From Saccostrea cucullata (lineage: Eukaryota): 64,000 bases of DNA. A program made the position numbers and the translations under genes. Positions 1 to 59,410 of the stretch are shown here, piece by piece. A model generated the notes under the pieces. The model saw only the letters and a program-made list of their open reading frames with translations, was not told the DNA's origin and ran no database searches. Each line of letters opens with the position of its first letter. Position 1 is the stretch's first letter. The stretch is taken from positions 186,001-250,000 of the forward strand of contig NW_026927071.1 of the NCBI RefSeq assembly GCF_032062105.1, read 5' to 3'.

Positions 1-1089
1 AACAGTGGAATGTTATAACATAAAAAGGTGAAGTCAACAATGGAAACCCTGAAGTCATGCTAAAGATGACCAATAATATTTAAAGTTAGTACAACATTCA
101 AGTATTAAAGGTAAACAGTTATAGCAGATTCTTTACGAGATAGGAAAATTTTTGAGTTCCTTTATTACTCATGTGAACAAAGAGGCAGCCGTCTGTGGTA
201 TTTAAAAGCCGAGTCTTTCATTAAATGTGAAGAGGGATTGATTTTATATACATGTAAATTAAGTGTGATAAAATCATATGTTATAATTTAACTAATTTTG
301 AAAAAAAATTGTGTTTTGCGTGGCAGTAGCATTAATTGAAATGTTATGTATCTTTATATAATGGCAAGAGGGCTAACAGCGCTGCAATGCATTCCGAAAA
401 TATAATATAAGCGTATTATGACAAGAAGCATAAGGGCAAAGAGCTAATTAATTATCATGTCAGGGATTTATTTCAGAACTGATAGGGTGTCTAATCTGAT
501 TTAAATGACAAGGAAGACAATGACAATATCCGAATAAATTTGGCTTTACTTTAGGGAGATATACAATCAGGGAACGAAAAATAAAGATCAAAAGTCCATT
601 GAAATAATACTCCTTTCGACCAGTCACATCACCATGTACTCATCATCATGATCATGGAAATCGAAAAAAAAATATATCGTTTGACCATTCAATGTGAAAA
701 TAATGACCTTACAATTTGTATAACAACGTCTGTCATTAGAAAAACCCAAGATAGTAATTATTTCACTACATTCAAGAAACTCTGCCGAAAAGTGGATGAT
801 TTAAAAATTCATAAAAAAAATAAATTGTAAAGAAGACATGACTTAAATAATTTTATTTCTAGCTTTTTGAGATATCAAGTTTTGCATTTTTATTTCTCAT
901 TATTCCTACCAGAAAAAGAGGATAATTAGTATCAGTATATCAAATCCGATTTCAAAACTGTCATGTCTCCCTTGTAGCATGATTGCCGTCTCGAGGCGTG
1001 CCTTCATTAATGATCAGCTTCTCAGATGAAGTATTTAAGTCTGAGAGATCTATGCGTCTTTTTTACGTCGTCTCTGACCCGAAGCAAGC

Positions 1090-1734
1090 ATGTCTTCAGG
1101 TATTGAAACAATGGTAGTGTCTCAATTTGTAGAAAGCAAAGTCAGAAAATGGTTTCAGCTCAATAATCTAAAGAGGGATGGATTCATAAGCAAACAGGAT
1201 TATTCAGACATGGCAGAAACATTCACGAAAGAGTTCGATTTAGACGAGAAAAAGGCACAAGCAATTCGAAACTGGTTAGAAAACGGTTGGGAAATTTTGA
1301 TTAAAAAAGGAGAAGAAATCACAGCACAAGGAGGCGTGGGAGGAGTGTCCCCAGAAAGTGCTCCCAAGCTTCTAGAAGTAGGAAAAAAGATGCGAGAAAA
1401 TGGCCAGATTTCTGAGAACGAGTACATCGGAGCATTTAAAGAACTTGTTGGCTTCAATAAAAATTTGTTTGTCGAAACCTTTGCCGGCATGGTAGGGAGC
1501 TTTTTTGACGCCTTCGATGTGAACAACACTGGTTATCTAACGAGCCAAAATTTTCAGAAGGGTATGAAGTGTTTTGGAATGACTAATACGGAGGCAGTAG
1601 ACACAATGTTCAAAGCTATGGATACAAAAAAAGAAGGAAAGATCGATAAGGAAACGTACGTCGGTCACTGGATCGAATTCATGACCGGGGATAACAAGGA
1701 GGGAGTGATCGCCCAGTTCCTATGCAGAATGTAA
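1090..1734 (+). CDS. Intronless EF-hand protein, sarcoplasmic calcium-binding protein (SCP)/calexcitin-like, 214 aa
   Basis: Single ORF. N-terminal 'KVRKWFQLNNLKRDGFISKQDY' and C-terminal 'FFDAFDVNNTGYLTSQNF' and 'MFKAMDTKKEGKIDKETY' match the SCP four-EF-hand layout. TATA-like TATTTAAG at ~1032 and AATAAA at ~1807. Confidence 0.8.
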   Translation: MSSGIETMVVSQFVESKVRKWFQLNNLKRDGFISKQDYSDMAETFTKEFDLDEKKAQAIRNWLENGWEILIKKGEEITAQGGVGGVSPESAPKLLEVGKKMRENGQISENEYIGAFKELVGFNKNLFVETFAGMVGSFFDAFDVNNTGYLTSQNFQKGMKCFGMTNTEAVDTMFKAMDTKKEGKIDKETYVGHWIEFMTGDNKEGVIAQFLCRM

Positions 1735-5918: not shown

Positions 5919-8900
5919 CTACACATGCGTATCATCATCTTCCTCAATGTCCGTAATGAAGTACATGGGGTTCTCTTTCGTGACTCCAGAGTTCTGGTCA
6001 AACGCTTCATCCATTGTCAGGTATTGATCTTTAATGTTAGGTTCCTTACTGTGGCGGGCGTTACCTCTCCTACAATATTAACACAGACTTAAAAAGTTAT
6101 GGACTGTAACTAAATGCAGACAGCTATTTTTCAAGAAGAGGTTGAAAAGTTTGTCATTTATCTCTTTGAATAAGAAATATATGTAGATCTACCATTTATA
6201 GTATAATTATTATCTATATTATACTTGAGATGTTGCAGATAACACGCCAAATTTGTTATGTCTAGTTCAGTAAAATTTTGTTTGAAAAGTTTGAATAAAT
6301 ACAGGTGTACAGAAGAACTCAGGGCATTTTCTTGGATTGGTCAGACTTTCTTTATCAGTAAGTGTAGATGTAATTCAAGAGCGAAGAATGTCGGTGAAAA
6401 GATTCGTGATATTCGTAGGGGTTCTAAAGTTGGTGATGAACTCCATTAAATTTAAACAAACCCTGTAATTAATGCAGAAATACTGCAGATCTTTATTCAT
6501 ACGTACTTACTTCAGTTTTACCACGATAATAATGATGATAACCAGTACGAGAAAGCCACCTCCCGCCCCGGCAAGTATAGGAATATTTTGTTTTATCCAG
6601 CTCTAAAAGATTAAAGAAATTAATGAAAGGCGTGTAAGACCTTTTATTTTGTATTCTATTTCAGCCCGATTTCACTTTTAATAATGCAACAGTTAACATA
6701 AGACTGCTGTGTTTCTTTTTTTGTTTGAAAGTCAATATAAAAAAGGTATCATGACAAAAACTTGAAAGACAAAGCATTCTTATAATTGTCTTTGTTATCA
6801 TTCTCAATGCATTTCTTTATTTTCAATACATTTCTTTCATTTCTCAGATTATTTTTGGGATACATTGTGTTTCTATTAAATAGAATATAGCTCCAATGAA
6901 ATGTTCTTTTCAAAACGCTTTCATGTCTTAAGCATGTTTTTCATTGCAGTCTTTATACAGACTACAGAAGTGTAGGGTTTGAATGTGCTCTGATTTAATT
7001 CTAACAGATATTGTTGAAATAAATGATTAAAACAGTTCAATGTCATGGTTCTTTTGAACTGCTCACATGCTTATGTGAGTGAAAATCATTAAATCTGAAT
7101 TTGTCCAGATTAAGTGGAAAAAATATTAAGCGAAAAAAAAAAATGATAAAACCTTATTATTTGCATCATCTTTGGCTTTCAATCTTGATAGCTCAAAAGG
7201 AAAAGCAGCCTTCAGTTGCGTGTTTGACATCTCTTTAAATTTTGTTTCTAGTCGGTCCCGTGTGAGGGGTTTTCCATCACAAATGACTGGAACTTGAAAG
7301 TCCGTATTCCCGTTGCTTATTGGAAAGAAACAGAATTTATGGTAAAAGAATAGAATTCTGTTAATATACGATAAAGATTTACACATGTCTTAGATAGAAT
7401 ATTTATATACTAGTAACTATGCTAAATATAACTTGAATGTAAATGCATTTACATTTTACGATATTTGTGGGATATCATAAATATAAACATAGAATATTGA
7501 CTAATTTTAATTTTACCTGTATGACAAGGTATGATCCTTTGACAAAACGCTGACGTCATGACATAAAGAGGAACATAAGACCTGTAAGGAGCTTTCTATT
7601 TTATTAAGATCTTGGTCTGTGATATGTCCTGTAAACTCTAGCATTATCTTCTCCACTCCGATTAACCCTATAAGAATAGAACAATATTTATAATTTAAAA
7701 CACTTTTTATAATAATAAAACTCGGTATTTATATATTTCTGCAATGAAAGCATCGTATAAATGGAATAGCAAAACAAAGAAAGATAATTTTTTGTATATA
7801 ATAATTTTTCTTTCTGCATGTAACTGTTTCCAAGAACGTCTGAAATAGTTCTTTGGGAGTGATTGATCTCCTTTCTGTCCTATCCAAACCTAATTTTTAC
7901 AATGAGGAAAGCAATAGTCTTTGAAAAAAAATAACATATACATGTAGTTCAGTTTAAAACTTTGAACCATTTCTCGTGACCCCGTTTCTGTTCTCGGGAT
8001 CACAATTAACCTGATAACTGCAAAACATGAGACCAGATTTGCATATGTATATTTGGAGTTTATGGTATTTGAGAGGTTTAAACAGGTTTTTGTATGCATT
8101 TCCTGCCGACTTTGGGTGAATAATTTTGGTTTCAATTTCGCCACAGGAGAATCTGGGTGAAGAAATCAGACTTATCTTTAAGATATTTGAATAGAAAAGG
8201 ACAAACTATGGCTTTGCCTCTCAAAAGATCTTTTTGTTCTTTTTACAGTTCTTTTTACAGGATGTTCTTTTTTCTTATAAGAAACTTTGCACCATTGTAT
8301 GAGTTTTTGGTACTACCATAAGACAGTTTTGATACATTCAAAATATATACGTATTAATCTAAAAGTTTAAAAGTTAAATATAATTAACTGAATCAAGAAA
8401 AAATAGGATGCATGCCTACTGTAGGTTTTCCATTCAATATTTCACAAGTTCTTCCCGAATGTCCTTCTTGGCAGTTGCACCTAAATGACCCAATAGTGTT
8501 AACACATATTCCGAATCCGGAGCATTTTTGTACTTCGCATTCATCTATATCTTCATCGCATTCTTCTCCTTTCCATCCATCTAAACACACACACTGGAAT
8601 GATCCCGGCAGATTCCGACACGATTTAATATGTTTACACCGGTTCTCTTCGCATTCGTTTACGTCATTATTACATTGCTTTCCCCTCCATCCACGTAGAC
8701 AGGTACAGTTATATCCACCAACGAAATTACGACATGTTGATCCGTGAAAACAAACATCATTGTTGCATTCATTTACGTCATTCTCACAATGTTTGCCCGT
8801 CCAAGAAGACGGACAGTTACAGTGAGCACTACCACGCGTATCTATGCAAGTTCCACCATGTTCACAAGAAAGAATATTGTTTTCGCATTCTTTTATATCT

Positions 8901-11900
8901 TCTGTGCAAGCTGTACCACCCCAACCTTGTCTGCAGTGGCAGGAATAACTGCCATCAGTATTAGTGCAGTTATAACTATTTCTCGTCGAACAAAAGTTAT
9001 CAAACGTACACTCGTTTAGGTCTCTGTCACATGCCTCTCCTACCCAACCTTTCTGACAAGTGCAACTGAAGGATCCTGGAAAGTTAACGCACTGAGAGGC
9101 ATGTTTACAGTCTCCTGTTGAACATTCATTTACGTCTTTCTCACAGGCAGGACCCGTCCAATATGGAGGGCAGATACAATGATAGCTACCGATGTTATCT
9201 ACGCATGTTCCTCCATTACCACAGATATTATTATTTTTACACTCATCAACATTTATTTCGCAGTCCACACCAGTCCATCCAGGAAAACAATCACAAAGAA
9301 ATCCGCCAACTTGATTTGTACAGTTTCCTTTATTATGGCATATATTTTGATCACATTCATTCACATCATTGGCACATTTAGGACCCGTCCAATTTGGGGG
9401 ACATATACAAGAAAAGGAACCAAATATATTTTGACAAGTACCGCCATTCAGGCAGGAGTCACCGCCAAGGCATTCATTAACATCGGCCTGACACCTATCT
9501 CCCTGGTATCCTAAATCACACACGCACTGGAAACTCCCTGCCGTATTTGAACAGTTACCATGATCATTGCAGATACTTGGCTTCAAACATTCATTGACAT
9601 CTTCTTGACAGTTTTGACCAGTCCAGTTCGAGGAACACAGACAGGTATAAGATCCTACATTATTCTGACAAGATCCTTCATGACGACAGGGACTGTACGC
9701 CGTACACTCGTCTACATCTACATTGCAAGTAGTCCCGTTCCATCCAGGATGACAGGAGCATGTAAAAGCTCCTGGGATATTTGAACAGTTTCCATGACTA
9801 TTGCATGCATTCAGGAGACATTCATTTACATCATCTGTACAGTTTTTACCCTTCCAATTTTTGGGACAGTTACATTCATAACCACCTTTGACATTATTAC
9901 ATGTACCCTGATTTTTACAAGGCTGATAGTTTGAGCATTCATCTATGTCTGCATCACAATTTATACCGAACCATCCGCTTGCACAACTGCATTGATATGT
10001 ACCATTAAGATTAGTGCACGTCCCATTGTTTTTGCAAACGTTTAAAAGGCATTCGTTAACGTCTTCTTGGCATCGTTTTCCCTGCCAACCTAAACTACAA
10101 TTACAGTTATATGAATTGTCTGCCAAGTCCGTGCACGTGCCTCCGTGTTCGCATGGTGCTTTCGTGCATTCGGGAATCCTGCTTTCACAGTCTTGTCCAG
10201 TATATCCTGTAAAGTATTTTATGTATTACAGTCAAATTTTTTAGAGGAACAAAATCCAGCATAGATAATGATCACTACACTCTCAATTGTGTAATTTGAT
10301 TTGTTAACATTTAAAGAATGTTGCCTATATTTGGCATTATATAATATTCCATGACCTTCAATATCTAAATAAAATTCGACAATTTTTGCTTACCATCCTG
10401 GCATTGTAAATATCCTTGATTAGTACAGTTTCCGTGGCTAGTGTCAACACAATACCTGGAACACTCATTGCCAAAGAAATGGGTGTTACAGATTAATTCT
10501 CCATAATCATTACATGTTCCATTGTTCGTGTCAACACAGTGTATATTACATTTTGGTCCGAAATAGTTGTCATCACAGATCATGGTGCCCGTCATATTAC
10601 ATCGGCCGTGGCTCCCAGAGACGTGAGAGGAACATCTGCCGGAACAGTCGACTCCATAGAATTCCACATCACACTGGACAGAAATAATCATACTCACCCT
10701 GAATTTGGAAGAAAAAAAAATAAATATTTCTATCTTTATTTACGTCAAAAACCATGTATACGACCACTTATTTTTAATACCGTATTTTAGAGGGTTGAAT
10801 CGGCACCTGTAGCGACAGGAATGAAAAAATAATCATAACATTACTCATCAAGAATATTTTCTGTAAGGTTAGTGTACGTTCCCACTCTATCACGATTGAA
10901 CTACTGAAATAATAAAAAGCCTTAATAGTGTAAAATGTTTTCAGATCCTAGGACATTTTTTTCTGATCTTGATCGTTGATTTTTTTTTTTTACAATCGTG
11001 TTATATTTTTTCTACGATAAACACAACCCTCACATTTTTAATCGTAATCTTCACATCACAGCATACTGCATCGTAACATAGGCAAACAAAACCCCCAGCT
11101 ATTCCGATCGTGAACAAATCGCAACCATAATCTTATGTTATCGTAATATAGCAAATGAGTTCTTCATAAACACATTGAAACCTATATACATGTTTATGTA
11201 AAGGCATAGAAGGTGACGATAGCTTATTCTCTGACTATCCGCCCCAAGACTTTGCTATAAATTAGTTTTACTGTATTGTGAAACAATAAAATATACATCT
11301 TTTATGTAGCTTATACCTTGTCAAATAATTGTAGAGTATTGTGACATTCTGGTTCAAAACATTGGTGTATGCTATCTGGAAGAAGTCCCGTATCATAGTA
11401 CGATTTTTGTTGCCTCCATCAAAGATTAGGAACTCAACAAATGTGTTATTCTGCAACGAAATTGTAATTAAAATTTCAAATATTACGGATGATAATTCTT
11501 AAGAATCAGATTCCTTAAGTCTACTGATTTTTATCCTTATCCATATGATCGAGAAGTTACTGTATACAATGTTATTTTTGGTTATTTTCGGCCTTTAACA
11601 CTTGCAAACCATTTTTCCCGTTTTAAATTCGCCCATTCAATTTTTTTTCGTAAGAGATCATGTGGTGCATTTTTTTTAATTTCGTGACCAAAAGCAACGA
11701 GGCAAATAACAAAGGGATGAAATGCGCCTCTCAAGGTGTTAGAGGTCCATGTTGGCTTTTCCCCGATTTCTATTTCTCTAATGAGTTTTTGAGCTAAGTT
11801 ACTGTTCTTTATCTTTATATTTTATAACATCGAGACAATATCCAGCATAATGTTGCAGCCTGAATTTTATATTGCAAAAATGAAACGATAATGCAAAATG

Positions 11901-14757
11901 ATATAAGTATAGAAAAAACATAGCATTCCACACCACAATTTGGAAGATATCTGTACCTGAGTAGATTATATTTTGACTGTGTGATAGTGTTTTAATTTGA
12001 ACCCCTATTTATACTTTAATTTGTATTCATTAATTTATAATACTTACATTCCATTTTGAGATTTCTACTTCCAGCGGGTTTCTCAGAGCACCAATAGTTG
12101 GCACATTCCTGAACTCGATATGCCTATTTTTTCCCAGTCGTCCAGTTTTTAAAGAATTCAAAACTTGCCCATTTCTTCCAACTCTGTAAATTTGCAAGAA
12201 TTAGAAAACTATCTGCTTACATAAAACAAACAAGTTACACTTTTGATATACATGTGTACATGTCTACCACTTTACAATAAAGGATTACTACATTTACCGT
12301 TTAATAAAATTAATGTATAAAATATTATAGTATATCATCTTTTTATAGATCTTTTTAAAAGCACACGTATACTTAACTTAACATTTAAGTATACTGATGA
12401 GAAAAATGTTATATTTTATTAAAGACAGGAATATCATAATCATCATCTTCTTCAAAACCCCTTAGAGTTCTGGTTACGACTTTCATCAATTACGTGTAAT
12501 ACCAAATTGAAGATTTAACAAAAATTAGCATTGTTTCAATCTGATATAATTTTTATTACTTCTTTTTTTTGGATACCGATTTACAGTAAGATAAACCTAA
12601 AAACCAAGGCTTTATAGCATCATGCTCAAACTTTTTTTCAGATGGTTGATAATCCTGCAGAATCACATTATTGATACATAACGATATTACAAAATCACTC
12701 ATTTTATTGGAATAAAAAGGAATATGGATATTTCCAATTTAGTACTCAAAATACATGTACTTCTTCGTAAGGTCATAATGAATCAGAAAAGTTTGTTTCC
12801 CCAATTAATCTTTCAATAAAATGAAATCCAACAATATTAGTCAAGTTAAGTTTTAAATGATGTTAAAAAAATTATTTGGTACAGTCACGATCTTTTCATA
12901 TCATAGCAATTATGAGTTTTGGAGAAAAGCTCAATATTGTATCTATTATGCCTATGTCACAGAGAAAAGACCAACATGTGAAACAAAATTGAAAATAAAA
13001 GCCAGAAAAAGCAATGCCCGACAAACTTTCACAATGAGCAAACCAGTCTGAAATTCCAGTACACTATAAGTGAAAGCACAATGATCCGATATAAATATTT
13101 ATTTATAAAGATATTTCATACCTGTATTAAACCAGTGCTTTTCTACGAATTAGAAACCTGTCCAGAGACTAACAACCTGGAGATTAATAGCAGAACTACA
13201 ACAAAAAATCCAGGTATTTACCGACAAATGTACTAAGTAATATCTGTAAAGTGACCCAGCCAATATGAATCAAAATCTTCAACAAGAAAGGAGCACGCCA
13301 GTGGATTGGGAATACAAGTAGAAAGCCCCAACAGAGCATAAGTAAAGAAGCATTGGACTGGAATCCAAAAATATCAAAGAAAAAAAAGATCGAGTCTTGT
13401 ACAGTTGGAGGAGTACAAGATTGAAAGAACTAGAAAACACTGGACAGACCTGGAATAAGGCAAAAAAGAACAGCCCAAAACAATAGAAAACAGTGGGCAG
13501 ATCTGGAATAAGGCAAAAAAGAACAGCCCAAAACAATAGAAAACACTGGACAGATCTGGAATAAGGCAAAAAAGAACAGCCCAAAACAATAGAAAACACT
13601 GGACAGATCTGGAATAAGGCAAAAAAGAACAGCCCAAAACAATAGAAAACACTGGACAGATCTGGAATAAGGCAAAAAAGAACAGCCCAAAACTGAGTTA
13701 AGCGGAGAGCGACTGACAGTAGTAGCCCTAGGCTCTATAATGAACGAGGAGGATAATCTAGTAGAAAACACTGGACAGATCTGGAATAAGGCAAAAACAA
13801 GCTGTGTCGATTAAGGCAAAAAAGGCCCACTTCAGATCTGGAATCCACCTTGTCCTGGGTGAGAGAGGCAAAAAAGGCCCAAAACGTGCTGGAGGTTTTT
13901 AATAAGGCAAAAAAGCAGCCAGGAAACTCTGGAATAAGGCAAAAAAGAACAGCCCAAAACAATAGAAAACATGGAGCACAGCTGCCATGTTTGCGTTCCT
14001 AGCCTCGCTTTGGATTCAAAATGGCCGCGGTGAGAATAACAAGTATTACAATCATCGTTCGCTTAACGGTTGTTTGATTTTCGCCTTCGGTAGACATTGA
14101 GCAAAACCGAATTCCTAAACGTCGATCGACCGACGACCGCTAAAATTGTTTGCCGAAGGTGGGATGATGATCAAAGGTTGATCGATGTACTGTCCAACGT
14201 CTGCTTCATTTGGAGGAATTGATCACCGAATTGATCCGACTGACATGAAATTACACAGCCGACGAAAAAAAGAGGTAAAATGAACTGCAGACTGTGGCCC
14301 AAGAAATCCTATAAACTAGTATTTGCTTAAAAACCGTCTGCCGTAGATCGTTTTCGCGAAAAGTATTTTAGAAAACTGACCTGAGGTTGACTTCTATGGA
14401 AGGATTACAAGGTTCCACACATCTCTGGGTACTGGCTAATGTGTTTGTTCCACAACAGTGGTGTAGGGTATCGTTGTCTTGGTCCAGATATTGGTTTGCG
14501 TTGTTTGAGTAAGTTAGTAGATTAAGAGTGACCACTACGTTACCCTGTACCTAGAATATTATTATAAAGACTGTCAGAGGAAGAAACAAAACCATATTAA
14601 TCTCTTTGGGTTTGTCTTTTTTTTTTGCTTCTGTTTTTCCTTACCAGTAGTAAAAGACTTGAAGAATTTTCCAATATCCACCATAAATACTTACAATTAA
14701 GTTTTCCACCACTAAGAGTATACCAACATATAAAAATTGTCTCGTGAATCCAGCCAT
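5919..14757 (-). CDS. Delta/Serrate-like type I membrane protein (~1051 aa): signal peptide, MNNL/C2-like domain, 3 DSL-like modules, 15 EGF repeats, juxtamembrane domain, TM helix, short tail
   Basis: Exons 14757-14695, 14550-14381, 12183-12048, 11450-11317, 10698-10394, 10206-8416, 7667-7517, 7315-7153, 6602-6511, 6069-5919. All phases are compatible if one GC donor is used. TM segment IPILAGAGGGFLVLVIIIIIVV; tail ends …ENPMY…DDTHV*. Confidence 0.85.
13430..13970. repeat. 53-bp minisatellite (about 5 clean copies plus degenerate ones) in intron 2 of the Delta-like gene
   Basis: Unit aaaacactggacagatctggaataaggcaaaaaagaacagcccaaaacaatag with 53-bp period (e.g. 13540 to 13593). Interrupted at ~13693-13760. 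Confidence 0.9.
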
Positions 14758-16477: not shown

Positions 16478-17624
16478 TTTTGTCCCCCGCTTGAAAAGTG
16501 GGGGATTTTAATTTGGGTTTGTCCGTCCGTCTGTCCGTCCGTCCGTCCGTCCGTCCGTCCGTCTTTCTGTCTGTCTGTAACGCTTTCGTTTCCACACGAT
16601 ATCTGAACCCTTTGAGCTTTTGCAATGAAATTTAGCATAGCAACTCCCTGTGGACTGAAGAAGACCCCTATTGATTTTGAGGTCAAAAGGTCAAAGGTCA
16701 AGGTCATAAATAAGCAAATTCTGTCTGTTAAAACACTTTCGTTTCCACACGATATCTCTAGAACCATTTGAGCTATTGCAATGAAATTTTATATAACAAG
16801 TCCCTGTGGCCTAAGGAAGACCCCTATTGATTTTGAGGTCAAAAGGTCAAAGTTCAAGGTCGTAAATTTATACATTCTGTCTGTGTGAAATACTATTATT
16901 TCCAGGCGATATTTCAAGAAGATTTTGAGCTTATGCAATGTAATTTTATATCAAAACTCCATAGGACGTCTCTCGCCCCTCTCAAAGTGCCCCGCCCCGT
17001 TTGTTTTATTAGTATTTATAGTATTACATGTCGCTATTTTTAGCGCAGGGGCATGAGGAGAGTTATTGCGTATAAAACAGGTTCTCGGCGGACTTTATGT
17101 TCTTATTACATCTATTAGAACTGTTTAATAAAGGCTAAATAAATCAAACACCATGGATTGTGTAAAATTTTGAGAATACCGAACATGAATATATACATGT
17201 ATGTGACTTCACTTCTGCATATACTTCACACCACATAAAGCGATTGCGTGGTGTAGTGGTTATGTCTCTCGCCTCAAGTGTGAAAGATCCCGGGATCGAA
17301 TCTCGGTCGAACCTTCCTTTTTTTTTTTTTTTTTTTTAAATACTTTTTTTTTTTTTTTTTTTACTAAATGATAGTATTCAGCATGTGAAATGAAAAATTT
17401 ATGAGGTTTTAAAATCATCATTACAGTGTGATAAAAATTCCATATAAAAAATCTTCTATACACATAATGAAGAATAAGCAATCAAATCTTTATATGCATA
17501 TTGACATACATGCATTTTATTTGCTTCAGTATACATGTATACATTTAATAATTCTACAAATTCAGTCAGGGGGAGCCGACTTTTTCCCTAAGCGGGGGAC
17601 ACGAATTCTCTGAATTAGCTTGTT
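16478..17624 (+). mobile_element. Non-autonomous Helentron-associated element (HINE, CvA/pearl-like) nested in the mariner
   Basis: Sub-terminal inverted repeats gtcccccgctt and aagcgggggac, a (GTCC)n microsatellite at 16520-16577, a ~150-bp tandem core containing 'ggtcaaaaggtcaaaggtcaaggtc', a 3' hairpin, and a T-rich insertion site. Confidence 0.8.
17242..17313 (+). pseudogene. tRNA-derived (Val-like body) pseudogene or SINE head, followed by an oligo-T run
   Basis: gtggtgtagtggttat (A box) … cgggatcgaatctcgg (B-box-like). It aligns with canonical eukaryotic tRNA-Val, but the acceptor and anticodon stems are mispaired. Confidence 0.65.
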
Positions 17625-18134: not shown

Positions 18135-21100
18135 ATGGGGGTTTATAAACTTCTGGTGAAAGGCGCCAAGCAAATCGTGACCATACGAAATGACAGCGGT
18201 GTACGGGTACTTCGAGGAAAGGAGATGGGTCATGTTGACGTCATAGAGGCAAAAGATGGAGACGGAGCTTGTATTCTTGTAAACAGGTGAGAATTGTACA
18301 ATTATTTATACAGGTAACACATTGTCTACAGAGTTATCACCACGTAACGCAAATACACAAGCTTATCAATGCAGCTATATATAGGTCAATTGATAATGAT
18401 TTACTTATACAATAATGGAAAAGTATGGCACACGGTGGCACAACCCGTCGTAAAAACATGCTTTTACTTTCAATAAAGTAGCAATCATAATGCATAAATG
18501 ATATATCAACATTTATATATGTATTGAAAAAAAAAATACATAATTCAATATATCTATGAATCACTGACTTTTATTTTCCTTTAGTGACGGTAGAATAGAG
18601 TTTATTGGTTTGGACTCGGAACGTATATCAAGATATCCAACCAGTGATGAAGAAGTGAATCACGTGATTGAAGCTGACGGGAAATGCATAATTCCTGGTC
18701 TTGTAGACGCCCACACACATCCGGTGTGGGTTGGAGATCGAGTCCATGAGTTTGCTATGAAGGTTTTTTTAACATCCCATATCGCAATACATGAATAAAT
18801 CAGTAAAAAAGTGGAAAATATGCTGCATGCTAAAAATTATACCGGTCCAGCACTTTATGTAGATATAAAACATAAATTCAAAATGAATGTAGAATAAACA
18901 ACACAGACACAAATCCACACTAAATTTATATAAGTTATCAAAGTAAGGTACTTTTGCAATCATTGCAAATACCTTTCTTTAACATTTCAGACAAATGCTT
19001 ATTTTACAGTATATTTGTACTTTTGTAGCTAGCTGGTGCTTCGTACATGGAGGTCCATGAAGCCGGTGGAGGCATTCATTTTACCGTAGAAAGGACAAGA
19101 AAGGCGTCCCAAGACGAGTTATATGTTAGCTTTAGCAAACGCCTTTATGATATGTTATCTACCGGAACCACGTGTGTTGAGTGTAAGAGTGGATACGGAC
19201 TAGACACAGAAAATGAGATAAAAATGCTGAAAGTAATTGAAACTGCCAAACGAGAACACCCATTGACGATATCATCTACCTTCTGTGGTGCTCATGCTAT
19301 TCCAAAGTATGACTGTAACTCTATTTCTTTTATAAGGGGAACCATTAAAACACTTCTGAAAAGATATTTGAAAATGTTTTCTAATACTCTTAATATTATG
19401 ACTTAAAAGAGTCTTTTAATTTAGAGGATCGACAGCAGAAAAGGCAACAGATGACGTCATAAATAAACAACTTCCTGCCATTATCAATCTCATGAAGGAT
19501 GGAAAAATTCATGTAGATAATATAGACGTCTTTTGTGAGAAGGGAGTGTTCGATTTAGAACAATCGCAGGCTATATTGAAGGCCGGAAAAGAGGCGGGTT
19601 TGAACATAAATTTTCATGGTGATGAGTTACATCCACTCGGTGGTGCTGAGGTAATGATTCGGCTTTAAATAACATAACTGGAGATCAGAATACCACAGTA
19701 ATCTTCTTAAGTCCGTATTAAATTGTTACTTTGTATCTATCTTTCTCATTACATGACCATCGCATTATTTACAATCTGATCACTACAATTACGTGATTGT
19801 AGAATAGGATGATGATCAATATATAGAAAAAAACTATTCTTCTTTATAAGTATGCAATACTTCACCCAGATTTAACCGAGATCATGTTTGAAGAATGCAT
19901 GACCTTTTAGATGGGATCAGAACTAGGTGCCCTTGCAATCAGTCATTTGGAGGAGATATCGGACAAGGGGATCGCCGCCATGGCCAGCTCTGGGTCAGTA
20001 GGCGTGGTCCTGCCCACGACAGCCTACATCCTGAGACTGAAACCTCCACCCGTCAGAAAAATGATCCAGGCTGGAATGGCGGTAGCGCTAGGCTCAGATT
20101 TCAATCCAAATGCTTTCTGTATGGCAATGGTAAACTTCTTTTAAACTTTACTGATGATGCTTGAATTCAAACTCTACCAATAGTGGAGGGGTTAGTTGGC
20201 AGAATTACTAGTATACTGGAATGTTAAATTCTAGTATCTAAAAGGTGCATATGTTACTAGTAATTTGACCAAATAAGTTACATCAAGATTAAAAACTTCA
20301 TAAGAATTGATGTCTTAAATTGCATGCATCTTACATTAACATCTTTTGAGCAATCAATATTTTGATAACTTCCGAATGCAGACACTCCTAAGTCATACAT
20401 TGCTGAAAACGTGACAATTCCTATAATTACAGAATGGATAACTAGCTTTCCTTCAGAACTTGGCGGATTAATAAGTCTTTTGCGTTCATTATCTTCTTCA
20501 GCCGACAGTAATGCATCTTGCTTGCGTGATACTGCGGATGACAATGTCAGAAGCTCTAATTGCCGCCACCCTTAATTCAGCATCCGCCCTTGGTTTATCT
20601 AAAGGTTATGGATCACTGTCACCCGGCAAATACGCTGATATGCTGATTATTGACGCACAAAGGTAAGGAATTTATATTCAGTAATCAATGAGCTCTCAAA
20701 TAAAAATTACAGATTAAGCAACCTAACTATAGTCAGAATCTGGGTTAATATATTTTTGTAAATTTAAAATGATTATAACAAGCAGCATATAAATACCTCA
20801 AAAAGTAAACATTAGTGTACTTATATGAAATATGAAGATAAAAACAATTATTAGATCAAGAATATAGTGAAAAAATGCGAAGTGTAAGAAAAACAAACAC
20901 TGACATCTGATAACAGGATCACGTGCTGTAGAGGTCTGAGCATCCCATACCTGGTGCACATTGTCATGGTGAGGCAAGAGGAAAAAAAACATGAAAATAG
21001 TGACCAAGAATTTTTAAAAGACGTCAGTCAGTACTCAACATAACGTTTGATTGTGTTTACAAGACAAAGGCCATACTGTATTGACCCATTCGGATTAAAA

Positions 21101-28200: not shown

Positions 28201-31200
28201 ATATAAAAGGTTTTCCAAAGCATGCATTACTGCATGGAAGGACTAAGTACAAACCCCAAAATTCCTACTGTCTTAAGCATTTCACTGAACAAAACAATAT
28301 AATCAAATCATGTACAGAAATTATGATAGGAAAAAAATGAGGGAAGCTCTGGCTTTTTTTAATGTGAATATAAAAATATTTCATTTTATTAAGTTTCAAA
28401 TGTTGTTTTCAAGAAAATTTGAAAAGATTTTCATGTATCACAATGATGAAAAAATTCTTTGCACTATATCACACAAAAACAAATAAAAATGACTCAAAGA
28501 AAAATCTCTATATATAATGTTTAATTACCTAGCTTTGATCTTTAAATCTGCTGCTTTTGACTCCTCTTTTGATATCTGTGAATTTAATTTGTCTATTTGT
28601 TCTTTTAATATTGAAGTTTCTTTTTCCCTGAAAAAAAAATCAGAAATAGAATGAATTTCATGAGCAATGGTACATAACATGATAATTGCTTGATATTAAT
28701 ATAAAACTGTAAAATGGCTCTAAATTATAATAAATCAACCCATTTAAAATCTGCTCAGATTTGGCATCTGTGCATTATAGAAACCAGCAATATAATCCAA
28801 TGTGCTGAAAATACTAACTGTTCCTCCAAGTCTGTAAAAATAGATGATTTTTTAATATTCAGACAGACAAACTTCACTAATATAATGTTTGATCGACCGA
28901 GACCATTTTATGGTTTGTATCATCTGCATTATTGTTAGTTACATAAATTTTAACTTTTGTCTGTTTTATAGTTTGCATTATGGTATTACAAAGTTATTTT
29001 CACTTTTATCTCTTTATGTTGTTACATGCATTTTAACTTTTGTCTGTTTTATGGTTTGTATGTTGTTATATGCATTTTAACTTTTGTCTGTTTTATGGTT
29101 TGTATGTTGTTACATGCATTTTAACTTTTGTCTGTTTTATGGTTTGTATGTTGTTACATTTTAACTTTTGTCTGTTTTATGGTTTGTATGTTGTTGCATT
29201 TTAACTTTTGTCTGTTTTATGGTTTGTATGTTGTTGCATTTTAACTTTTGTCTGTTTTATGGTTTGTATGTTGTTACATTTTAATTTTTGTCTGTTTTAT
29301 GGTTTGTATGTTGTTGCATTTTAACTTTTGTCTGTTTTATGGTTTGTATGTTGTTACATTTTAACTTTTGTCTGTTTTATGGTTTGTATGTTGTTACATT
29401 TTAACTTTTGTCTGTTTTATGGTTTGTATGTTGTTACATGCATTTTAACTTTTGTCTGTTTTATGGTTTGTATGTTGTTACATGCATTTTAACTTTTGTT
29501 TGTTTTATGGTTTGAATGTTGTTACATGCATTTTAACTTTTGTCTGTTTTAAGGTTTGTATGTTGTTGCATTCTAACTTTTGTCTGTTTTATGGTTTGTA
29601 TGTTGTTACATACATTTCTTTTACTTTTATCTGTTTTATGGTTTGTATGCATTTTAACATTTGTCTGTTCTATGGTTTGTATGTTGTTACATGCATTTTA
29701 ACTTTTGTCTGTTTTATGGTTCGATAATGTTACATGCATTTTAACATTTGTCTGTTTTATGGTTTGTATGTTGTTACATGCATTTTAACTTTTGTCTGTT
29801 TTTTGGTTTGTATGTTGTTATTTACATTTTAACATTTTAACTTTTGTTTGTTTTATGGTTTTTTGTATGATGTTATATTGTTTTATGGTTTGTTTGTATG
29901 GTGTTACATACATTTTAACTTTTGTCTGTTTTATGGTTTGTTTCATTTCTTCTAACGCTTCCTCAGTTTCTTGACTGTTTTGAATTAGAGATAAATTCTG
30001 CTCTTCTAAATCTGCAAAAATGTCCAGCAGTTCCTGTGGATGTGAGAAGAACAATTCCAAATCCTGAAATTAAAAAAAAAGTATGTAAGCTACTTATAAT
30101 TGATGAAAGGTAGGTACATTAAAACATGATCATAACAAACAGGCTTCATTAAATAATGTTTACAATGAAATGATTTTCATTCTCAATAGCTTACAAAATA
30201 TATTGCAGTTATAACAGATATTACATGTATAATGAATTATGTTTATGACAAAGCAATATATCGATTCCTTGGAACTTTACTATAAGTGCGGTACGTATTC
30301 TGCATTAGGTAGATGATAACATGATATTTTGATAATCGGTTGAAAAAAGAGAAAAATCCAGTTTATGGAAACTCATAAAGATAATAGTCTCCTTGCTATT
30401 TATAGACACTTCTCCTATACAATGTACCTCATCACTCTCTTCATCTTCTTCTTCATCTTCCTCTGGTCTAAATGAGAAAATATCAAAAAAATCTTACAGC
30501 TATTATATCTTTCTATGCATGATATTTTCATTGATGGTTTGACTAAATTCCATTTGATTTATTCATATTTGATTTCTTAAAACAAAAAATGTTATATCAT
30601 TGACATCAAATACTTTTTGTCACAGGGTTTGAACAAAAATGAAATTCAAGTAATGTTACCCAGTAAGCCCAGTATAATACTTGTTGAAATTGAACTTTTG
30701 GTTTGAGATTGTACTTACTTTTTGGCTGGGGGTTTTGAGACCGGTGGGGGAGGGGGTTTTGGCATCGCTTTCTTTTTGCCCTTGAAATCTTTGGGATCTG
30801 ATTCTAAAAGACTCTTTTTGTAAGCAATCATCTCTTGTTCTTTTGCCTTCTTTCTCTCTTCACGTCTCTTCTTTTTCTGTTTTTCTTTTTTGTCTCGCCA
30901 ATCCTGTTTTAGTTTTAAAGATTAAATATAAAACATGCATTTAAAAATTTTCAGTGTTTTTGAAAAAAAATTCACAAATTCTAAAGGTTATCACAACTGT
31001 GTATCTGCTTTACAGAATATGAGAAAAATAGGGGGGCATACAAGAGAAAAAGATAAGCATAATTATATAAATAATAATTGATGATACAGCTAATAGAAAA
31101 AATAAAATTTAGAGGAGCATGTGCAGTACCCTCTAGAGGTATTTATCTTCCTGTAAGCAGAATATGTAGATAATAAGCTGTGCCACCATAGCCCACAAAC

Positions 31201-34200
31201 CTGAGGTGTAAGATTGTCCAAAAACTTTCTGTACATTTGATATTCTTTCAGTGTGTCTTCGTATTTAGAAATCTCCGATTTGATTGCCATCATTGCTGCA
31301 TTAACCTTCTTTATCTCGGCTACCTTTTCAAGTTTAGCTTTTGTTTCATTCTCTGCCCTGTTGTTATAAATCCAAAATATTACTTATATGATTATAAATG
31401 TTCCATACCCACCATAAACAGTTGATTTTAAAAAATGTTGATTGAAAACATCAATCAAAAACTGTGACATTATATTTTTTTTCAAATTATTTCATCAACA
31501 GATAACAAATTGAAAGTCTAGGCCATTTCAAATTATCTCCATAATACACATATTTGGCAACAATCTAAATGATCCCAAATCATAATGCAGGCCTCTCAAT
31601 ACTGCTAAAAATATGGAAAAAACAAGCAGCTTAACTTTAAAACCATCCTGCCTACTAAGTGCATATAACCACAAATAGGTTGTAACACTGGTGAATTCAA
31701 TATACTAGTAGCACATGACCAACCCTTTGGTGTAACCTCCACCCAGGGACTTTAATATGCCTTTACCTGATTCTCTAACCTGCATGCTCATAAAGCACAC
31801 TTCACTTCATGCTACACAAACCTTGGGAGTAAGTCTGTCTAAGAACTTTCTGTACATTTCAAACTCCCTCAACATATCCTCAATTTTTGTGATTTCTGAG
31901 CGAACAGTCATGATAATGCTCGAGATTTGTTTTATCTCTAAAACTTTTTCCATTTTCTCCCTGCTTTCCTTCTCACAACTAAATTTAAATAGATGTCAAG
32001 GTTTTCATTCTTTATTATTCTTTTCCTTGATCGAAAGGATTCAGGAAATTATAATTATATGCTCCACAAAGTTACGCATATAAAACTTTGTGCTATGCAA
32101 ATTCCATCACTAAAAGATGCATTTCAGTAGTTAGTATTTTATTTCAGTTAAATTTGCTAACATAAAATATTCTCTTTTTTTATATAAGAAAAAAAGTTTT
32201 GAATAAGGAAAAAGACTAAACATGGCTTTCTCTCGAGGAATTAGTTTATACTTACTCTCGAACAGCCTCGTTTGACCCATGGTCGTTTTCTTTGAGGAAT
32301 TCATCAAACATGGCGGCATCCTCCTGTAAGTAGAGCTCCGCCAGGTCCAGCTTCTTCTCCTCCGCCTGCGAGATCTCCTCCAGTTTACTCATCTCATTTC
32401 TCTTTACTCCCAGAGAGTACTAAATAAACAAAATATTATTGCAAATACTAAACTAAAGAAAGACCAAGAAAATTGATTGAAATAAACTTGAGGAGGTTTT
32501 ACATACTTGGACTAGAAACATCTCCCTCTTCTTGGCGATGTATTCTGCTAGAGATTCTTTTTCAACATGTCGGTCTACAACAATAAAAAATAAAAATCAC
32601 ATAAGCAAAATATCATATATTTCAAAGATTATCCAGGAGAGGACCCTTTTAGTTTGTTCACAAAATAGTGTAAATTAAAATTTAAAAACCTCATTATTTT
32701 GAACTTGATGGAATCCCCCCTCCCCTTTCAAAAAGATTTGAGATAATTGTGGACTTGAGATGGTAAAGATATAATGTTTAGAACTTCAAATTCATTTCAA
32801 CATATCCTTTGTATTTAAGATACCCATGTTTGAGATGCCACAGTTCAATTGTATATTTTTCTATTACATAATGAAGCTTCAGATAGGTTTGCATGGTAAG
32901 AAGAACACAAGCATTGCCTTGTATTTAGCCTCACCTCTGGTGACTGCAATAGTGTGTTCTGGATCATCTTTTACTGCAATGGCCTTATCTGAATCCTCCA
33001 TTTCCTTCTCTTCATCGGAATCTACCGGTTTGATCATTGATGCTGTGCGAAAATTTACTTTTGATGCGTATGTTGTTTTTTCATGGACTCTTAGTTTACG
33101 TTGTTTTTCCCTTTCCTATTAAAGTAATCAATAAAAAATAATAAATTACTTATAAACAACATGGTTCTTTAAGAATATTGATTTTATTATTGTATTGAAA
33201 ACACAAAGTGGGAAGTAAAATTAAATTAGATTTAAAGAGAAACTTTACCAAACCAAAATTAAATAATCAATCAATGAATAATTACCATCTTTTTCCTCTG
33301 CCTTTCCTTGTCTCTGAGAACAAAAATATCACTGTCTGCAGGCATTTTGAAAGGATTTCCTTGAGGAACAAGTTCATCTATGAAAGACATACAAAAAAAA
33401 AAATTAAAATACCCTTAGTAGTAAGTCAAATCTCCATGTACTATAGTACATACATTTTTAAATATTTTTATGCAAAGTAACAAAGCACTCACTAAAATTC
33501 AATTTCAGATCAAATTAGATGAAAATATCAGGGTGTCCCATTGACCCAAGGACCATGGAATTTCCCTGCATATATTGCCATAATCCCCTGGTTATTTGAG
33601 TATCCCCACTCAACCCCCTGTTTTGGGAGGAACCCCATACATTCTTCTACTTTTTGTAAGCTACATGTATTTCAGTTCTTAGGGACAACTCTGAGATATT
33701 AGGACTATAGCTATCATAAGAGTAAAATAAAAGACTATATATTTACATGTAACACTTTTTTTTTAAGTCGAAACAAATAACATGAATAATGAGATAAATA
33801 TGATAAATATATAAATTATCAGAATGCCTAAAAACATTGACAAGTTCTTAATCATATTATACTCATATAAATTTACAACATTATATTATATGATTATAAA
33901 AACAATACCTGACAATACAGTTGATACAGATTTGGCAGAGTTTGGGAAAGTAACTCTCCCAGATTGCCTCGACCCATCTTGTCCTATAAATATAGATCAA
34001 ATCTGTTTTAAAAACATAATGGTTCAAAATATATACAACAGTAAAATTTAAAAGTCTTTCAATAAAATGTTCATATTCATCTTGCCATACAAAAAGTTCC
34101 CATAAATACCATATGTTTTTGTTTTTTTAGAACCAATTTTAAAGGTCTGTGTATTGTTATTTGAACTTACTAGATTTTTTCCCAGAAACCTCTGAGTTAG

Positions 34201-56737: not shown

Positions 56738-58484
56738 CGTTCAGAAGTCTTGTATTAATGGACACAAACAACAGAATGAATGATAGACTTGCCAGGTTTT
56801 ATTCACATGACGTAAAAACTCTACAATGTATTGTAAATTAATGACTCTGTGGGCATTGATATTCCGTTATCTATAGAAAAGGAGTGAAAATGAAATAAAG
56901 AAGAATACAACATTTGATGGAGAAAGGTTTGTCATCAAGTCAGGAATTTAATTTTTGTCTACCTAATGTTAGGCTTTCGATGGTGTTTTGAATTATTGTG
57001 AACAGACAACGCACGTAATTGGTTTTTCATTAATATAGGGAGGACATTTCAAACTTCCACATTTGGCCAACACGCTGTAAAACAGATAACCATTATCATT
57101 TCTTGTCCCTCCTCCCATAATCTGCTCGGGGTTGTCGTCCACGCACGTGTAGAACCCACGTGATGTGCCACTGGAGTGACTCTCTGATGATAGATATCCG
57201 TGATACTCTTCTGTCCACCCCTGTAGACACCGATTTCTTCCAGGAATCATGAGTATGTGTGTACCTGTTTTTAATTGACAGTAACTGGCAAGGGACATGT
57301 ATTATTGTTTTTGTAAAGTTTTGTCATCAAAGTTTGTATTAATTTCAAAGCAAACATGATTTGAAGTTGGTAATGTCAAGACAAAAAAAGAGAAATAAAA
57401 TACTAATTCTTTTGCACCATGCAAATTGGCAAACTCTGAGGGTTTTTTTCGGTTTCCCCACAACACATCAAATGTTAGACATAAAGGATTAGCGGCTCCT
57501 CCCTTTGCATTGTACATTGTCCCACCAGCTTGTCCTATGTTAATATATAAACAGTATTTTATAAATCAATTTTTTACTACTATAACTGTTTCGTGTAAGT
57601 AATTGGTGTAGGAATAGAAAATTCTTTAGTTTTTCATTATATGTCCAATGGAATTGCATTGCATTCAGACTATAGCTTAGAATTTTATCATGACAGTATT
57701 CCACATCCTTTTTAAAAACTTTTAATGGCAATACTATCCTTCCATCACTAACAAGAGTTGATCATACGAATTGAATAGAACTTCACTATTGTTAAGCAAA
57801 TAAAAAATAATCCAGGAAATCATATGGATATGGAAAAAATATGCTTCATACTAAATGCTCAAAATTCACATAAAATATTTAAAGTAATTGACTTGAATAC
57901 TATTGAAATCTAATTTTTTTCAATGAAGTCTATCAGAGCCTTATGAATTTATCTTCAAAGATTTAACTGAATATTGATAGCATGCCTAGAAGCAACGGAA
58001 AGTAATAATAAATGCTCAGTAAATGAGAAAATGACAATTAATAATTAAAGTTCTTTTTAAAGATGACATATCTCTCTGATAAGAGAGATAATTTTTAAAG
58101 AAAATTACGTATTCAAACCAATCAAATGGATTGTCTTTCCAGAAAATATTATGGTGATATAAAAAATTAATGATCTTTCTGCTCACCATGTCAAATTTTA
58201 TATATTTTATTACCAGCATAAACTAAAGTTGATCCATTGCTGCAGGTACTTTTCCCCCATCTCACATAAGTTGGAGTTCCATCTAAAATATGTACAAATT
58301 ATTTTTGTTATGTATATATACACGTAGTACTCAACGAAATTCTAACAAAAATTTCTTTTAAAAAGTTAATTTCAGCCTGACTTTTTAAAAGAATTTCTTT
58401 TTCGCAAGAAACGCAGTGACTTATAATTAATGACTGCATGTACATGTGTGTACTTGCAAGTTAAGTAGTCAGTCAAATTATTTC

Positions 58485-58572
58485 TAGCTGCAGAACTGTA
58501 GCTCTCCAAAAAAAATATTTTGTCTCCGGTCTGACAAAATCTTTTTTTCGGAGAGCTACAGTTTTGCAGCTA
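58485..58572. mobile_element. 88-bp palindromic mini-MITE with ~9-bp TSD (Mutator-like)
   Basis: tagctgcagaactgtagctctcc…ggagagctacagttttgcagcta with flanks aattatttc/aatcatttc. The empty site is present in the paralog at ~48945. Confidence 0.8.
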
Positions 58573-59274: not shown

Positions 59275-59410
59275 CACAGGAGTTCGCGTACCTATCAATT
59301 TCACCGAAATTTTCAGTAATTCTTTTAAAAAAATACGTCATACCTATAATTAGACATTTTTTTATGTACTGAAAATTTCGGTTAAATTGATAGGTACACC
59401 AACTCTTCTG
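59275..59410. mobile_element. 136-bp palindromic mini-MITE with CA…TG ends and ~7-bp TSD (P-like)
   Basis: gtacctatcaatttcaccgaaattttcagta and tactgaaaatttcggttaaattgataggtac; flanks attaaat/attagat. Empty site in the paralog at ~49647. Confidence 0.75.

What the first reader, a model, noticed from the sequence alone, without database searches (positions are those of the whole stretch)
5919..14757. Atypical Notch-ligand-like gene with three tandem DSL-like modules
Seen: a signal peptide, then a domain with the MNNL-like pattern (L-x-L-x-x-Y-x-N…CC…C…C…NP…W), then three consecutive modules (CDVEFYGVDCSGRC…HGRCNMTGTMI / CDDNYFGPKCNIHC…GTCNDYGELI / CNTHFFGNECSRYC…HGNCTNQGYLQ-CQDGYTGQDC). These are followed by 15 EGF repeats, a ~105-aa Cys-poor juxtamembrane domain, a TM helix and a ~55-aa tail. 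Known: canonical Delta and Jagged have one DSL domain, and Jagged has a Cys-rich vWC-like domain before the membrane. Inference: a lineage-specific multivalent Notch ligand, decoy or adhesion molecule. Automatic pipelines would probably label it fibropellin-like or notch-like.
Basis: partly seen in the sequence, partly recalled or inferred. Interest (0 to 1): 0.7.

Follow-up and report, generated by a model that had tools for sequence, protein, structure and literature searches.

The report
Notch-ligand look-alike receptor with DSL rod
This is a real, spliced shellfish gene for a cell-surface protein built from Notch-ligand parts, but it lacks the known Notch-binding residues and belongs to a family with repeat rods of very different lengths, so it likely works as a recognition and uptake receptor rather than as a Notch signal.

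Summary
Ten minus-strand exons (14757-5919, one GC-AG intron) give a 1,051-aa type I membrane protein. It has a signal-peptide-like start, a divergent C2/MNNL domain, a DSL-type repeat block, 15 EGFs, a 106-aa juxtamembrane domain, a TM helix and a tail with YLTM, NPMY and a terminal THV. Contigs from RNA-type runs of a close relative join 8 of 9 introns; the first has only 13 letters of support.

The 'three DSL domains' are 3.5 overlapping four-cysteine units (14 Cys). One unit models onto Jagged1 DSL (1.2 A over 44 residues), while the whole block resembles SCARF1's rod most. All three units lack the Notch-binding RxR[DN]DxFGH loop that the genome's three canonical ligands keep. The C2 domain lacks the site-1 disulfide loop, and there is no DOS motif.

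It is not a one-off. The same genome has relatives with about 4 to over 30 units, some with NPxY tails, and scallops and corals have C2-plus-tandem-DSL proteins. Bivalve DSL tandem repeats are already in print, and this scan noted other Notch-ligand look-alikes in other genomes. Most likely a non-Notch recognition/endocytic receptor (0.55); a multivalent activating ligand is unlikely (0.05).

The parts
14695..14757 (-). Exon 1: start codon and most of a signal-peptide-like segment (aa 1-21)
   Evidence: hydrophobic core FLYVGILLVVE, KD 2.37; 13-letter join to exon 2 in run X4, other 5' end in X1. No signal-peptide predictor was available.
14381..14550 (-). Exon 2: first strands and CC..C..C loop of the C2/MNNL domain (aa 22-78); lacks the strand-2 cysteine
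   Evidence: Pfam MNNL 17.5 bits; covered by contigs in 2 of 4 runs; alignment
12048..12183 (-). Exon 3: C2 domain middle; short loop without the site-1 cysteine
11317..11450 (-). Exon 4: C2 domain strands 5-7
   Evidence: Joints 11450/12048 and 10697/11316 in 4 of 4 runs
10394..10698 (-). Exon 5: last C2 strand plus three four-Cys DSL-type units (C177-C267); the closing half-unit ends in exon 6 (C276)
   Evidence: Pfam DSL; model pLDDT 87.5; fold matches SCARF1 and Jagged1 DSL
8416..10206 (-). Exon 6: closing loop of the DSL block and 15 EGF repeats (aa 283-857), mostly calcium-binding type; ends at a GC donor
   Evidence: Pfam EGF 15 and EGF_CA 14 stretches
7668..8415 (-). 748-nt GC-AG intron
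   Evidence: Skip of 748 in 4 of 4 runs; only GC..AG fits among 5 cut points
7517..7667 (-). Exon 7: first half of the 106-aa juxtamembrane domain
7153..7315 (-). Exon 8: second half of the juxtamembrane domain; weakly like the exon after the array at G000:C18140
6511..6602 (-). Exon 9: transmembrane helix (about aa 978-999) preceded by SW..N.P, as in the array genes
   Evidence: KD 2.94
5919..6069 (-). Exon 10: cytoplasmic tail with YLTM (1018), NPMY (1035), acidic run, terminal THV and stop
   Evidence: 2 changes in X1, both silent, against 11 in 119 nt of 3' UTR
13431..13693 (.). 53-bp tandem repeat (5 copies) inside intron 2; not coding

Best explanation
The gene encodes a spliced single-pass membrane protein of a variable-length 'C2 head plus DSL-unit rod' family, which likely acts as a Notch-independent recognition or adhesion receptor that internalises or anchors what it binds through its NPxY, YxxM and PDZ-type tail. 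Shown: gene structure, splicing in a close relative, domain homologies, absence of the known Notch-binding features, family relatives with different rod lengths, and conservation of the tail. Predicted: the units fold as DSL-like hairpins strung into a SCARF1-like rod. Inferred: 15 mostly calcium-binding EGFs hold the head roughly 35-40 nm from the membrane (own estimate at about 2.5 nm per EGF); the C2 head, which keeps its fold but not the Notch loop, is the binding end, with a lipid or cell-surface target as in other ligand C2 domains; NPMY recruits a PTB adaptor (CED-6/GULP, Dab or Numb type), YLTM an AP-2 or SH2 partner, and THV a PDZ scaffold. The ligand is not identified.
For: Notch site 2 lost: loop lengths 10, 7, 7 and 0 of 3 units with RxR[DN]DxFGH, against an 11-residue loop with the motif in 3 of 3 canonical ligands of this genome; Jagged1 R203 and F207 lie in the Notch-binding site (PMC5538765, passages). 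Site 1 lost: the strand-2 and loop cysteines are present in all 6 other C2 sequences aligned and absent here; that disulfide supports site 1. No DOS: EGF1-2 have ordinary 4-5-9-1-8 and 4-5-8-1-8 spacing. The genome already has three strong MNNL plus DSL genes. Fold: best Foldseek match SCARF1, E 2.3e-5, TM 0.60; VIA Z 5.6 and 5.5 to SCARF1, 4.2 to Jagged1 DSL. Family: C4912 has C2 exons in the same phases, about 4 units and 20 EGF stretches; C1989 and C19440 have C2 exons, kilo-residue unit arrays, a Ser/Thr-rich stalk, a similar TM exon and FDNPTY. Tail: 0 of 49 codons change residue against 9 of 56 in exon 2 (Fisher p 0.003). NPxY plus a tyrosine motif is the tail logic of CED-1, Draper and MEGF10 (PMC8092387, passages).
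Against: No binding, localisation or uptake data. The fold scores are low (VIA Z under 8 is common) and Notch ligands fill most of Foldseek's top ranks. The unit block is acidic (4 K+R, 12 D+E), unlike the arginine patches SCARF1 uses (PMC11563577, passages). The short tail motifs can arise by chance; of five multi-unit loci examined a clear NPxY was found in two (C1989, C19440), a doubtful ENPMF in one, and no TM or tail was found for C4912. The divergence test rests on one pair of sequences; exons 3 and 4 of the same C2 domain change little (7 of 139 and 4 of 135 nt). Canonical ligands also carry PDZ tails and lysines, and this tail has 4 lysines. In two raw-read RNA runs exon 2 drew 1 and 0 reads, so nothing points to a tissue.
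Confidence: 0.55

Rival explanations
1. A structural or homophilic adhesion spacer: the C2-DSL-EGF rod sets distance or tethers cells or matrix, possibly shed at the juxtamembrane domain, and the tail only anchors or sorts it.
For: Rod length varies widely in the family (3 units here; 34 in the 1,086-aa stretch L002 and 18 in L027), and sequons sit in the loop of 34 of 34 and 17 of 18 of those units, which suits a glycosylated spacer. The ectodomain has 20 N-glycosylation sequons in all.
Against: The tail is conserved and has three adaptor-type motifs; this member has only three units, of unequal sequence, each grouping with its counterpart in a 71%-identical relative.
Confidence: 0.2
2. A non-canonical Notch modulator or decoy: it binds Notch, a ligand or shared trafficking adaptors weakly by another surface and dampens signalling in cis.
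For: C2 and DSL folds are retained; 9 of 15 EGFs have the C2-x4-[ST]-C3 O-fucose pattern (read; pattern recalled); NPxY could compete for Numb-type adaptors (inference).
Against: Both mapped Notch-binding sites and DOS are absent; relatives with tens of units are hard to read as decoys.
Confidence: 0.15
3. A multivalent activating Notch ligand.
For: Ligand-like order SP-C2-DSL-EGF-TM; two units pass Pfam's DSL cut-off alone; unit 2 superposes on Jagged1 residues 187-234 at 1.2 A.
Against: 0 of 3 units have the binding loop; the units share disulfide loops and are not three independent domains; no PDB Notch ligand is matched by sequence at E 0.01, while the genome's Delta DSL exon matches 12 such sequences.
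Confidence: 0.05
4. A member by descent of the SCARF1/MEGF10/CED-1 family that gained a C2 head.
For: Best fold and weak sequence matches are SCARF1; NPxY tail.
Against: 4 Cys per 29-aa unit against 6 in the SCARF1 stretch shown; DSL is the best Pfam family for each unit; the N-terminus is C2, not EMI; the last C2 strand and first unit share an exon as in the single-DSL divergent genes.
Confidence: 0.05

Closest known systems
Canonical Notch ligands Delta/DLL and Serrate/Jagged (PDB 2VJ2, 4CC0, 4XBM, 5UK5, 7ALK)
   Same: Order signal peptide, C2/MNNL, DSL fold, EGF repeats, TM; PDZ-type C-terminus as in Delta (ATEV, PMC5356439).
   Different: 3.5 overlapping short units instead of one DSL; no RxRDDxFGH loop; no site-1 disulfide; no DOS; no vWC; a different juxtamembrane domain; NPxY tail.
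Bivalve DSL tandem-repeat genes and DSL+EGF genes of He et al. 2021 (PMC8166818); 'DSL-like' class of Gazave et al. 2017 (PMC5356439)
   Same: Tandem DSL repeats in bivalves; divergent DSL proteins with extra domains in lophotrochozoans.
   Different: He et al. describe the tandem-repeat group as lacking EGF and name MNLL only for Delta and Jagged (passages and Fig. S1 legend; the figure itself could not be read). Here tandem units come with a C2 head, 15 EGFs, a TM and an NPxY tail.
Scallop XP_021377214.1 (P0007), Pecten XP_033745666.1 (P0011), coral KAL9975606.1 (P0009) and KAJ7337253.1 (P0018)
   Same: C2-like head plus tandem DSL units (P0007, P0009, P0018); units plus EGFs (P0007, P0011); P0009 has a TM.
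   Different: Other unit numbers (Pfam stretches 7, 2, 15, 4); P0007 has two C2 domains; coral units keep 11-14-residue loops, mostly with GH[YF]; all keep the C2 site-1 cysteines. All are automatic annotations.
SCARF1/MEGF10/CED-1/Draper receptors (PDB 8HNA, 8HN0)
   Same: Rod of roughly 29-aa cysteine repeats; single TM; NPxY plus tyrosine motif in MEGF10, Draper and CED-1.
   Different: 4 versus 6 Cys per period; C2 head instead of EMI; long calcium-binding EGF stalk; acidic rather than arginine-rich repeat surface.

Membership tests
Canonical Delta/Jagged Notch ligands | N-terminal C2/MNNL domain | tested here: met
   A profile of 5 divergent C2 sequences scores the model 45.1 bits (0 of 500 shuffles, max 9.3) and the three canonical ligands 26.6-36.0; hhalign 94.3%. 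Direct score against a canonical-only profile was weak: 2.4 bits, 41 of 1000 shuffles.
Canonical Delta/Jagged Notch ligands | C2 strand 2-3 loop with disulfide (Notch site 1) | tested here: not met
   Both cysteines absent and loop short; present in 6 of 6 other aligned sequences (PMC5538765).
Canonical Delta/Jagged Notch ligands | One six-Cys DSL domain | tested here: not met
   DSL-type sequence and fold are present, but as 14 Cys in 3.5 overlapping units.
Canonical Delta/Jagged Notch ligands | Notch-binding DSL loop (RxR[DN]DxFGH; Jagged1 R203, F207) | tested here: not met
   0 of 3 units; 3 of 3 canonical genes in the genome have it. Mapping of residue numbers uses one search's alignment, one search's chain range from C187 and recalled numbering.
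Canonical Delta/Jagged Notch ligands | DOS motif in EGF1-2 (absent in Dll4, so not obligatory; PMC6986876) | tested here: not met
   Ordinary EGF spacing against the DOS-type EGF of the genome's Delta.
Jagged/Serrate | vWC domain before the membrane, at least 16 EGF (PMC5356439) | tested here: not met
   15 EGF; 106-aa domain with 3 Cys; no vWC hit on exons 7-8.
Canonical Delta/Jagged Notch ligands | Binds and activates Notch | not testable with these tools
   Needs binding and reporter assays.
'DSL-like' proteins (Gazave 2017) / bivalve tandem-DSL genes (He 2021) | DSL-containing protein with non-canonical domain set or DSL repeats | tested here: met
Bivalve tandem-DSL genes (He 2021, purple group) | No EGF domains | tested here: not met
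   15 EGFs.
SCARF1/MEGF10/CED-1 | Six- to eight-Cys laminin/MEGF-type repeats | tested here: not met
   4 Cys per unit; EGF_laminin under cut-off, 15.6 and 13.4 bits.
SCARF1/MEGF10/CED-1 | Rod-like repeat fold | tested here: inconclusive
   TM 0.60, E 2.3e-5; Z 5.5 with rmsd 6.4 over 98, Z 5.6 with rmsd 2.9 over 49, on a predicted model.
SCARF1/MEGF10/CED-1 | NPxY plus YxxL/ITAM tail | tested here: inconclusive
   NPMY present; YLTM rather than YxxL; no ITAM.
SEA domain (juxtamembrane) | Ferredoxin-like SEA fold or Pfam SEA match | tested here: inconclusive
   No SEA hit on the two exons scanned apart; Atlas search with the weakly related end of P0011 gave nothing usable. The spliced domain was not folded.

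The most novel reading that the evidence does not exclude
Bivalves and corals carry an unrecognised receptor family in which the Notch-ligand C2 head sits on a telescoping rod of 1 to dozens of four-Cys DSL units and signals or internalises through NPxY tails. The single DSL of Delta and Jagged is then just the 1.5-unit case of this repeat, which is related in fold to SCARF/MEGF rods, so C2-DSL proteins may have been Notch-independent surface receptors from which the Notch ligand was recruited.
Probability: 0.25. Interest if true: 0.7.

Novelty: new variant of a known kind. Interest (0 to 1): 0.4.

Why it matters
Domain counts treat each Pfam DSL hit as a Notch ligand part, and such genes get named Delta-like, Notch-like or fibropellin. 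This case shows a C2-DSL protein that has lost both mapped Notch-binding sites yet keeps a conserved adaptor tail. It gives a testable candidate for what the C2-DSL module does without Notch and links the reported bivalve DSL expansion to full membrane receptors with a C2 head. The GC-AG intron matters in practice: a GT-only annotation would cut off the membrane anchor and tail.

Tried and rejected
An extra candidate exon at 10903-10845 shifts the frame and is skipped by all 4 runs: rejected. The GT donor at 8420 gives an early stop: rejected. A single-sequence fold of exon 5 failed (pLDDT 43); the 10-row alignment was used instead. The EGF exon found no protein at E 1e-150 among 2,014 candidates (threshold strict), so no full-length orthologue was retrieved. 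Exon 2 against 1.84 billion representatives gave 5 hits, of which only P0003 is a real relative, and nothing in PDB at E 10. Exon 2, exon 8 and the tail each matched only themselves in the genome. The window's own exons were not among the 9 MNNL or 56 DSL matches listed in the genome scans (the latter scored 150 of 668 candidates), so family counts are lower bounds. A tree of 45 short units (34 columns) left most forks open: the canonical DSLs grouped at 94/85 with two first units of ENA proteins, and the window's units joined only their P0001 counterparts; no order of events is claimed. One 'unit' of P0007 in that set was a false match inside its C2 domain, and three single-DSL divergent genes were missed by the pattern, so they were not tested for the loop motif. 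The juxtamembrane domain did not match the coral protein's (-1.2 bits) and only weakly P0011 alone (2.8 bits, 30 of 1000 shuffles); P0011 plus C18140 gave 14.5 bits, 0 of 1000. The alternative 5' end of run X1 was not found in the window. The O-fucose column had an off-by-one error and the Fisher test over-counted changes; replace them. No complex prediction with Notch was run. Run shares were 0.16 or less and are not used as evidence of habitat or species. Literature searches showed no paper describing C2 plus tandem DSL plus EGF plus NPxY; He et al.'s Fig. S1 picture and FASTA supplements could not be read and may contain such genes.


Full report
Gene structure. The window lies in a 1.17-Gb animal genome; the named relatives are bivalve and coral proteins, so a bivalve source is inferred. 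Ten minus-strand exons from 14757 to 5919 give 3,156 nt and 1,051 aa with one stop. Exon 6 must end at a GC donor; the nearby GT donor leads to a stop at codon 867. Contigs of four public runs, about 93% identical to the window, join all seven introns of exons 3-10 at the predicted places. The exon 6-7 skip is 748 nt in all four, and only the GC..AG cut gives splice-type ends. One 2,750-nt contig covers exons 2-7 and loose ends join exon 2 to exon 3 in two runs. Exon 1 is joined by 13 letters in one run; a second run has another 61-nt 5' end not found in the window. No record spans the whole gene, and three of the four runs are only guessed to be RNA, though intron-free joints show splicing.

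The repeat block. Pfam DSL hits three stretches; single windows score 30.5, 31.5 and 22.3 bits, far below 67-76 for the canonical ligands. Cysteine spacing is 8-3-10-7, 8-3-7-7, 8-3-7-7, 8: 14 Cys, i.e. 3.5 four-Cys units in which the last loop of one 'DSL' is the first loop of the next. A canonical DSL is 1.5 such units. A model from a 10-row alignment reached pLDDT 87.5. Its best Foldseek match is SCARF1 (E 2.3e-5, TM 0.60), followed by Jagged and Delta chains (TM 0.35-0.41). VIA gives Z 5.6 and 5.5 for SCARF1 and Z 4.2, rmsd 1.2 A over 44 residues for Jagged1 187-234; these Z values are modest. By sequence the block hits no PDB Notch ligand at E 0.01, only Tie2 and SCARF1 weakly.

The N-terminal domain. 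Exon 2 scores under the MNNL cut-off and the joined domain scores poorly against three canonical sequences alone (2.4 bits; 41 of 1000 shuffles as high). A profile of five divergent C2 domains scores it 45.1 bits and the canonical ligands 26.6-36.0 bits, with no shuffle near; hhalign gives 94.3%. One of the five, coral P0018, passes Pfam MNNL and matches Jagged1 structures across C2 and DSL, and the scallop P0007 head finds MNNL-DSL clusters in the Atlas at 0.93. The C2 assignment is therefore supported transitively.

Notch-binding features. PMC5538765 (passages read) places site 1 on the disulfide-held strand 2-3 loop of C2 and site 2 on DSL, naming R203 and F207. The model lacks both site-1 cysteines, which 6 of 6 other aligned sequences keep. 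Its units have loops of 10, 7 and 7 residues without the motif, while the three canonical genes have the 11-residue RxR[DN]DxFGH loop. Unit 2 has an N-glycosylation sequon in that loop. EGF1-2 are not DOS; DOS is not obligatory, as Dll4 lacks it (PMC6986876, passages), but Dll4 then relies on MNNL and DSL, which are the sites lost here.

The family. The genome gave 130 matches to exon 5 on seven contigs, 150 of 172 candidates scored, and 9 MNNL matches, three strong and six weak. C4912 has C2 exons in the same phases, four Pfam DSL stretches and 20 EGF stretches. C1989 and C19440 have C2 exons, unit arrays in open frames of 1,039 and 1,050 aa, a Ser/Thr stalk, a TM exon starting SWAD and FDNPTY. 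C18140 and C18989/C13439 have long arrays and TM-like exons, and C18140 has an exon weakly like exon 8; no C2 exons were found for these in the stretches fetched. These neighbouring-gene models are read from open frames and were not checked with RNA. Elsewhere, 13 of 4,251 candidates passed E 1e-10, including scallop, Pecten and two coral proteins; four of the 13 (P0013, P0016, P0017, P0019) look like unrelated EGF proteins by their Pfam sets.

Tail and selection. The tail has YLTM, NPMY and terminal THV. Against run X1 the tail exon shows two changes, both silent, while the adjoining 119 nt of UTR show 11; exon 2 changes 9 of 56 residues against 0 of 49 in the tail (p 0.003 each). Run X4 has one extra codon in the acidic run. 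This is one pairwise comparison, and exons 3-4 vary little.

Mechanism. A conserved adaptor tail, a variable head loop, a long EGF stalk and lost Notch sites fit a recognition or adhesion receptor coupled to endocytosis, working like CED-1, Draper or MEGF10 (PMC8092387, passages) without being a member. The acidic unit block argues against SCARF1's arginine-based binding (PMC11563577, passages). The ligand and tissue are unknown.

Relation to print. PMC8166818 (passages, supplement tables and the Fig. S1 legend) reports 138 lophotrochozoan DSL genes and bivalve-only DSL tandem repeats without EGF. PMC5356439 (passages and supplement hits) sets such proteins aside as 'DSL-like'. PMC12166595 and bioRxiv 10.1101/2025.09.30.679519 (passages) do not describe this architecture in the passages seen. 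Five searches found no description of the full architecture; unreadable supplements may hold such genes. Earlier notes of this scan describe other Notch-ligand look-alikes in an annelid, Trichoplax and octopus, none of this gene; I did not test them.

Verdict. Real and correctly seen; the boldest interpretation fails its membership tests. It is a new variant of a known, uncharacterised kind. Interest 0.4.

Noticed in passing
window 1078-1734 (+): 218-aa open frame with EF-hand matches (Pfam EF-hand_7 44 bits); looks like a sarcoplasmic calcium-binding protein (name recalled).
   Followed up: partly
window 19029-20164 (+): Open frames that resemble imidazolonepropionase exons by recalled motifs; no Pfam hit at E 0.01 on the two pieces.
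   Followed up: partly
window 31090-31383 (-): Exon with DUF4200 match (53.9 bits), a CFAP100/CCDC38-type cilia gene (name recalled).
   Followed up: partly
window 46495-50087 and 56993-59737 (-): Tandem pair of similar genes with a coiled-coil exon and a C-terminal exon ending CVVCSQ, like short-chain collagen C4-type proteins (recalled); an N run at 48746-48932 lies inside the first.
   Followed up: no
window 13431-13693: 53-bp tandem repeat, 5 copies at 97%, in intron 2, with degenerate copies to about 13970.
   Followed up: no
window 16520-16960: GTCC microsatellite next to a 156-bp repeat of 2.5 copies, probably a common interspersed element.
   Followed up: no
G000:C18140:474391-493228: About 19 kb of nearly continuous 29-aa DSL-type units in several open frames up to 1,133 aa; could be one giant gene with over 100 units, or partly assembly frameshifts.
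   Followed up: partly
G000:C18989 and C13439; G000:C1989 and C19440: Two pairs of near-identical array genes (identical TM exon in the first pair); may be haplotypes or recent duplicates.
   Followed up: no
G000:C13668, C15695 (two), C19764, C21301, C10683: Six divergent single-DSL genes with weak MNNL first exons; those whose DSL exon was read share the intron before the last C2 strand with this gene.
   Followed up: partly
window upstream of 14552: Run X1 splices exon 2 to a different 61-nt 5' end whose visible part is not hydrophobic; an alternative first exon might give an isoform without the signal peptide.
   Followed up: partly
P0007 (scallop XP_021377214.1): Two C2-like domains in one chain, each followed by DSL units; G000:C19440 upstream also shows several C2 first exons.
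   Followed up: partly
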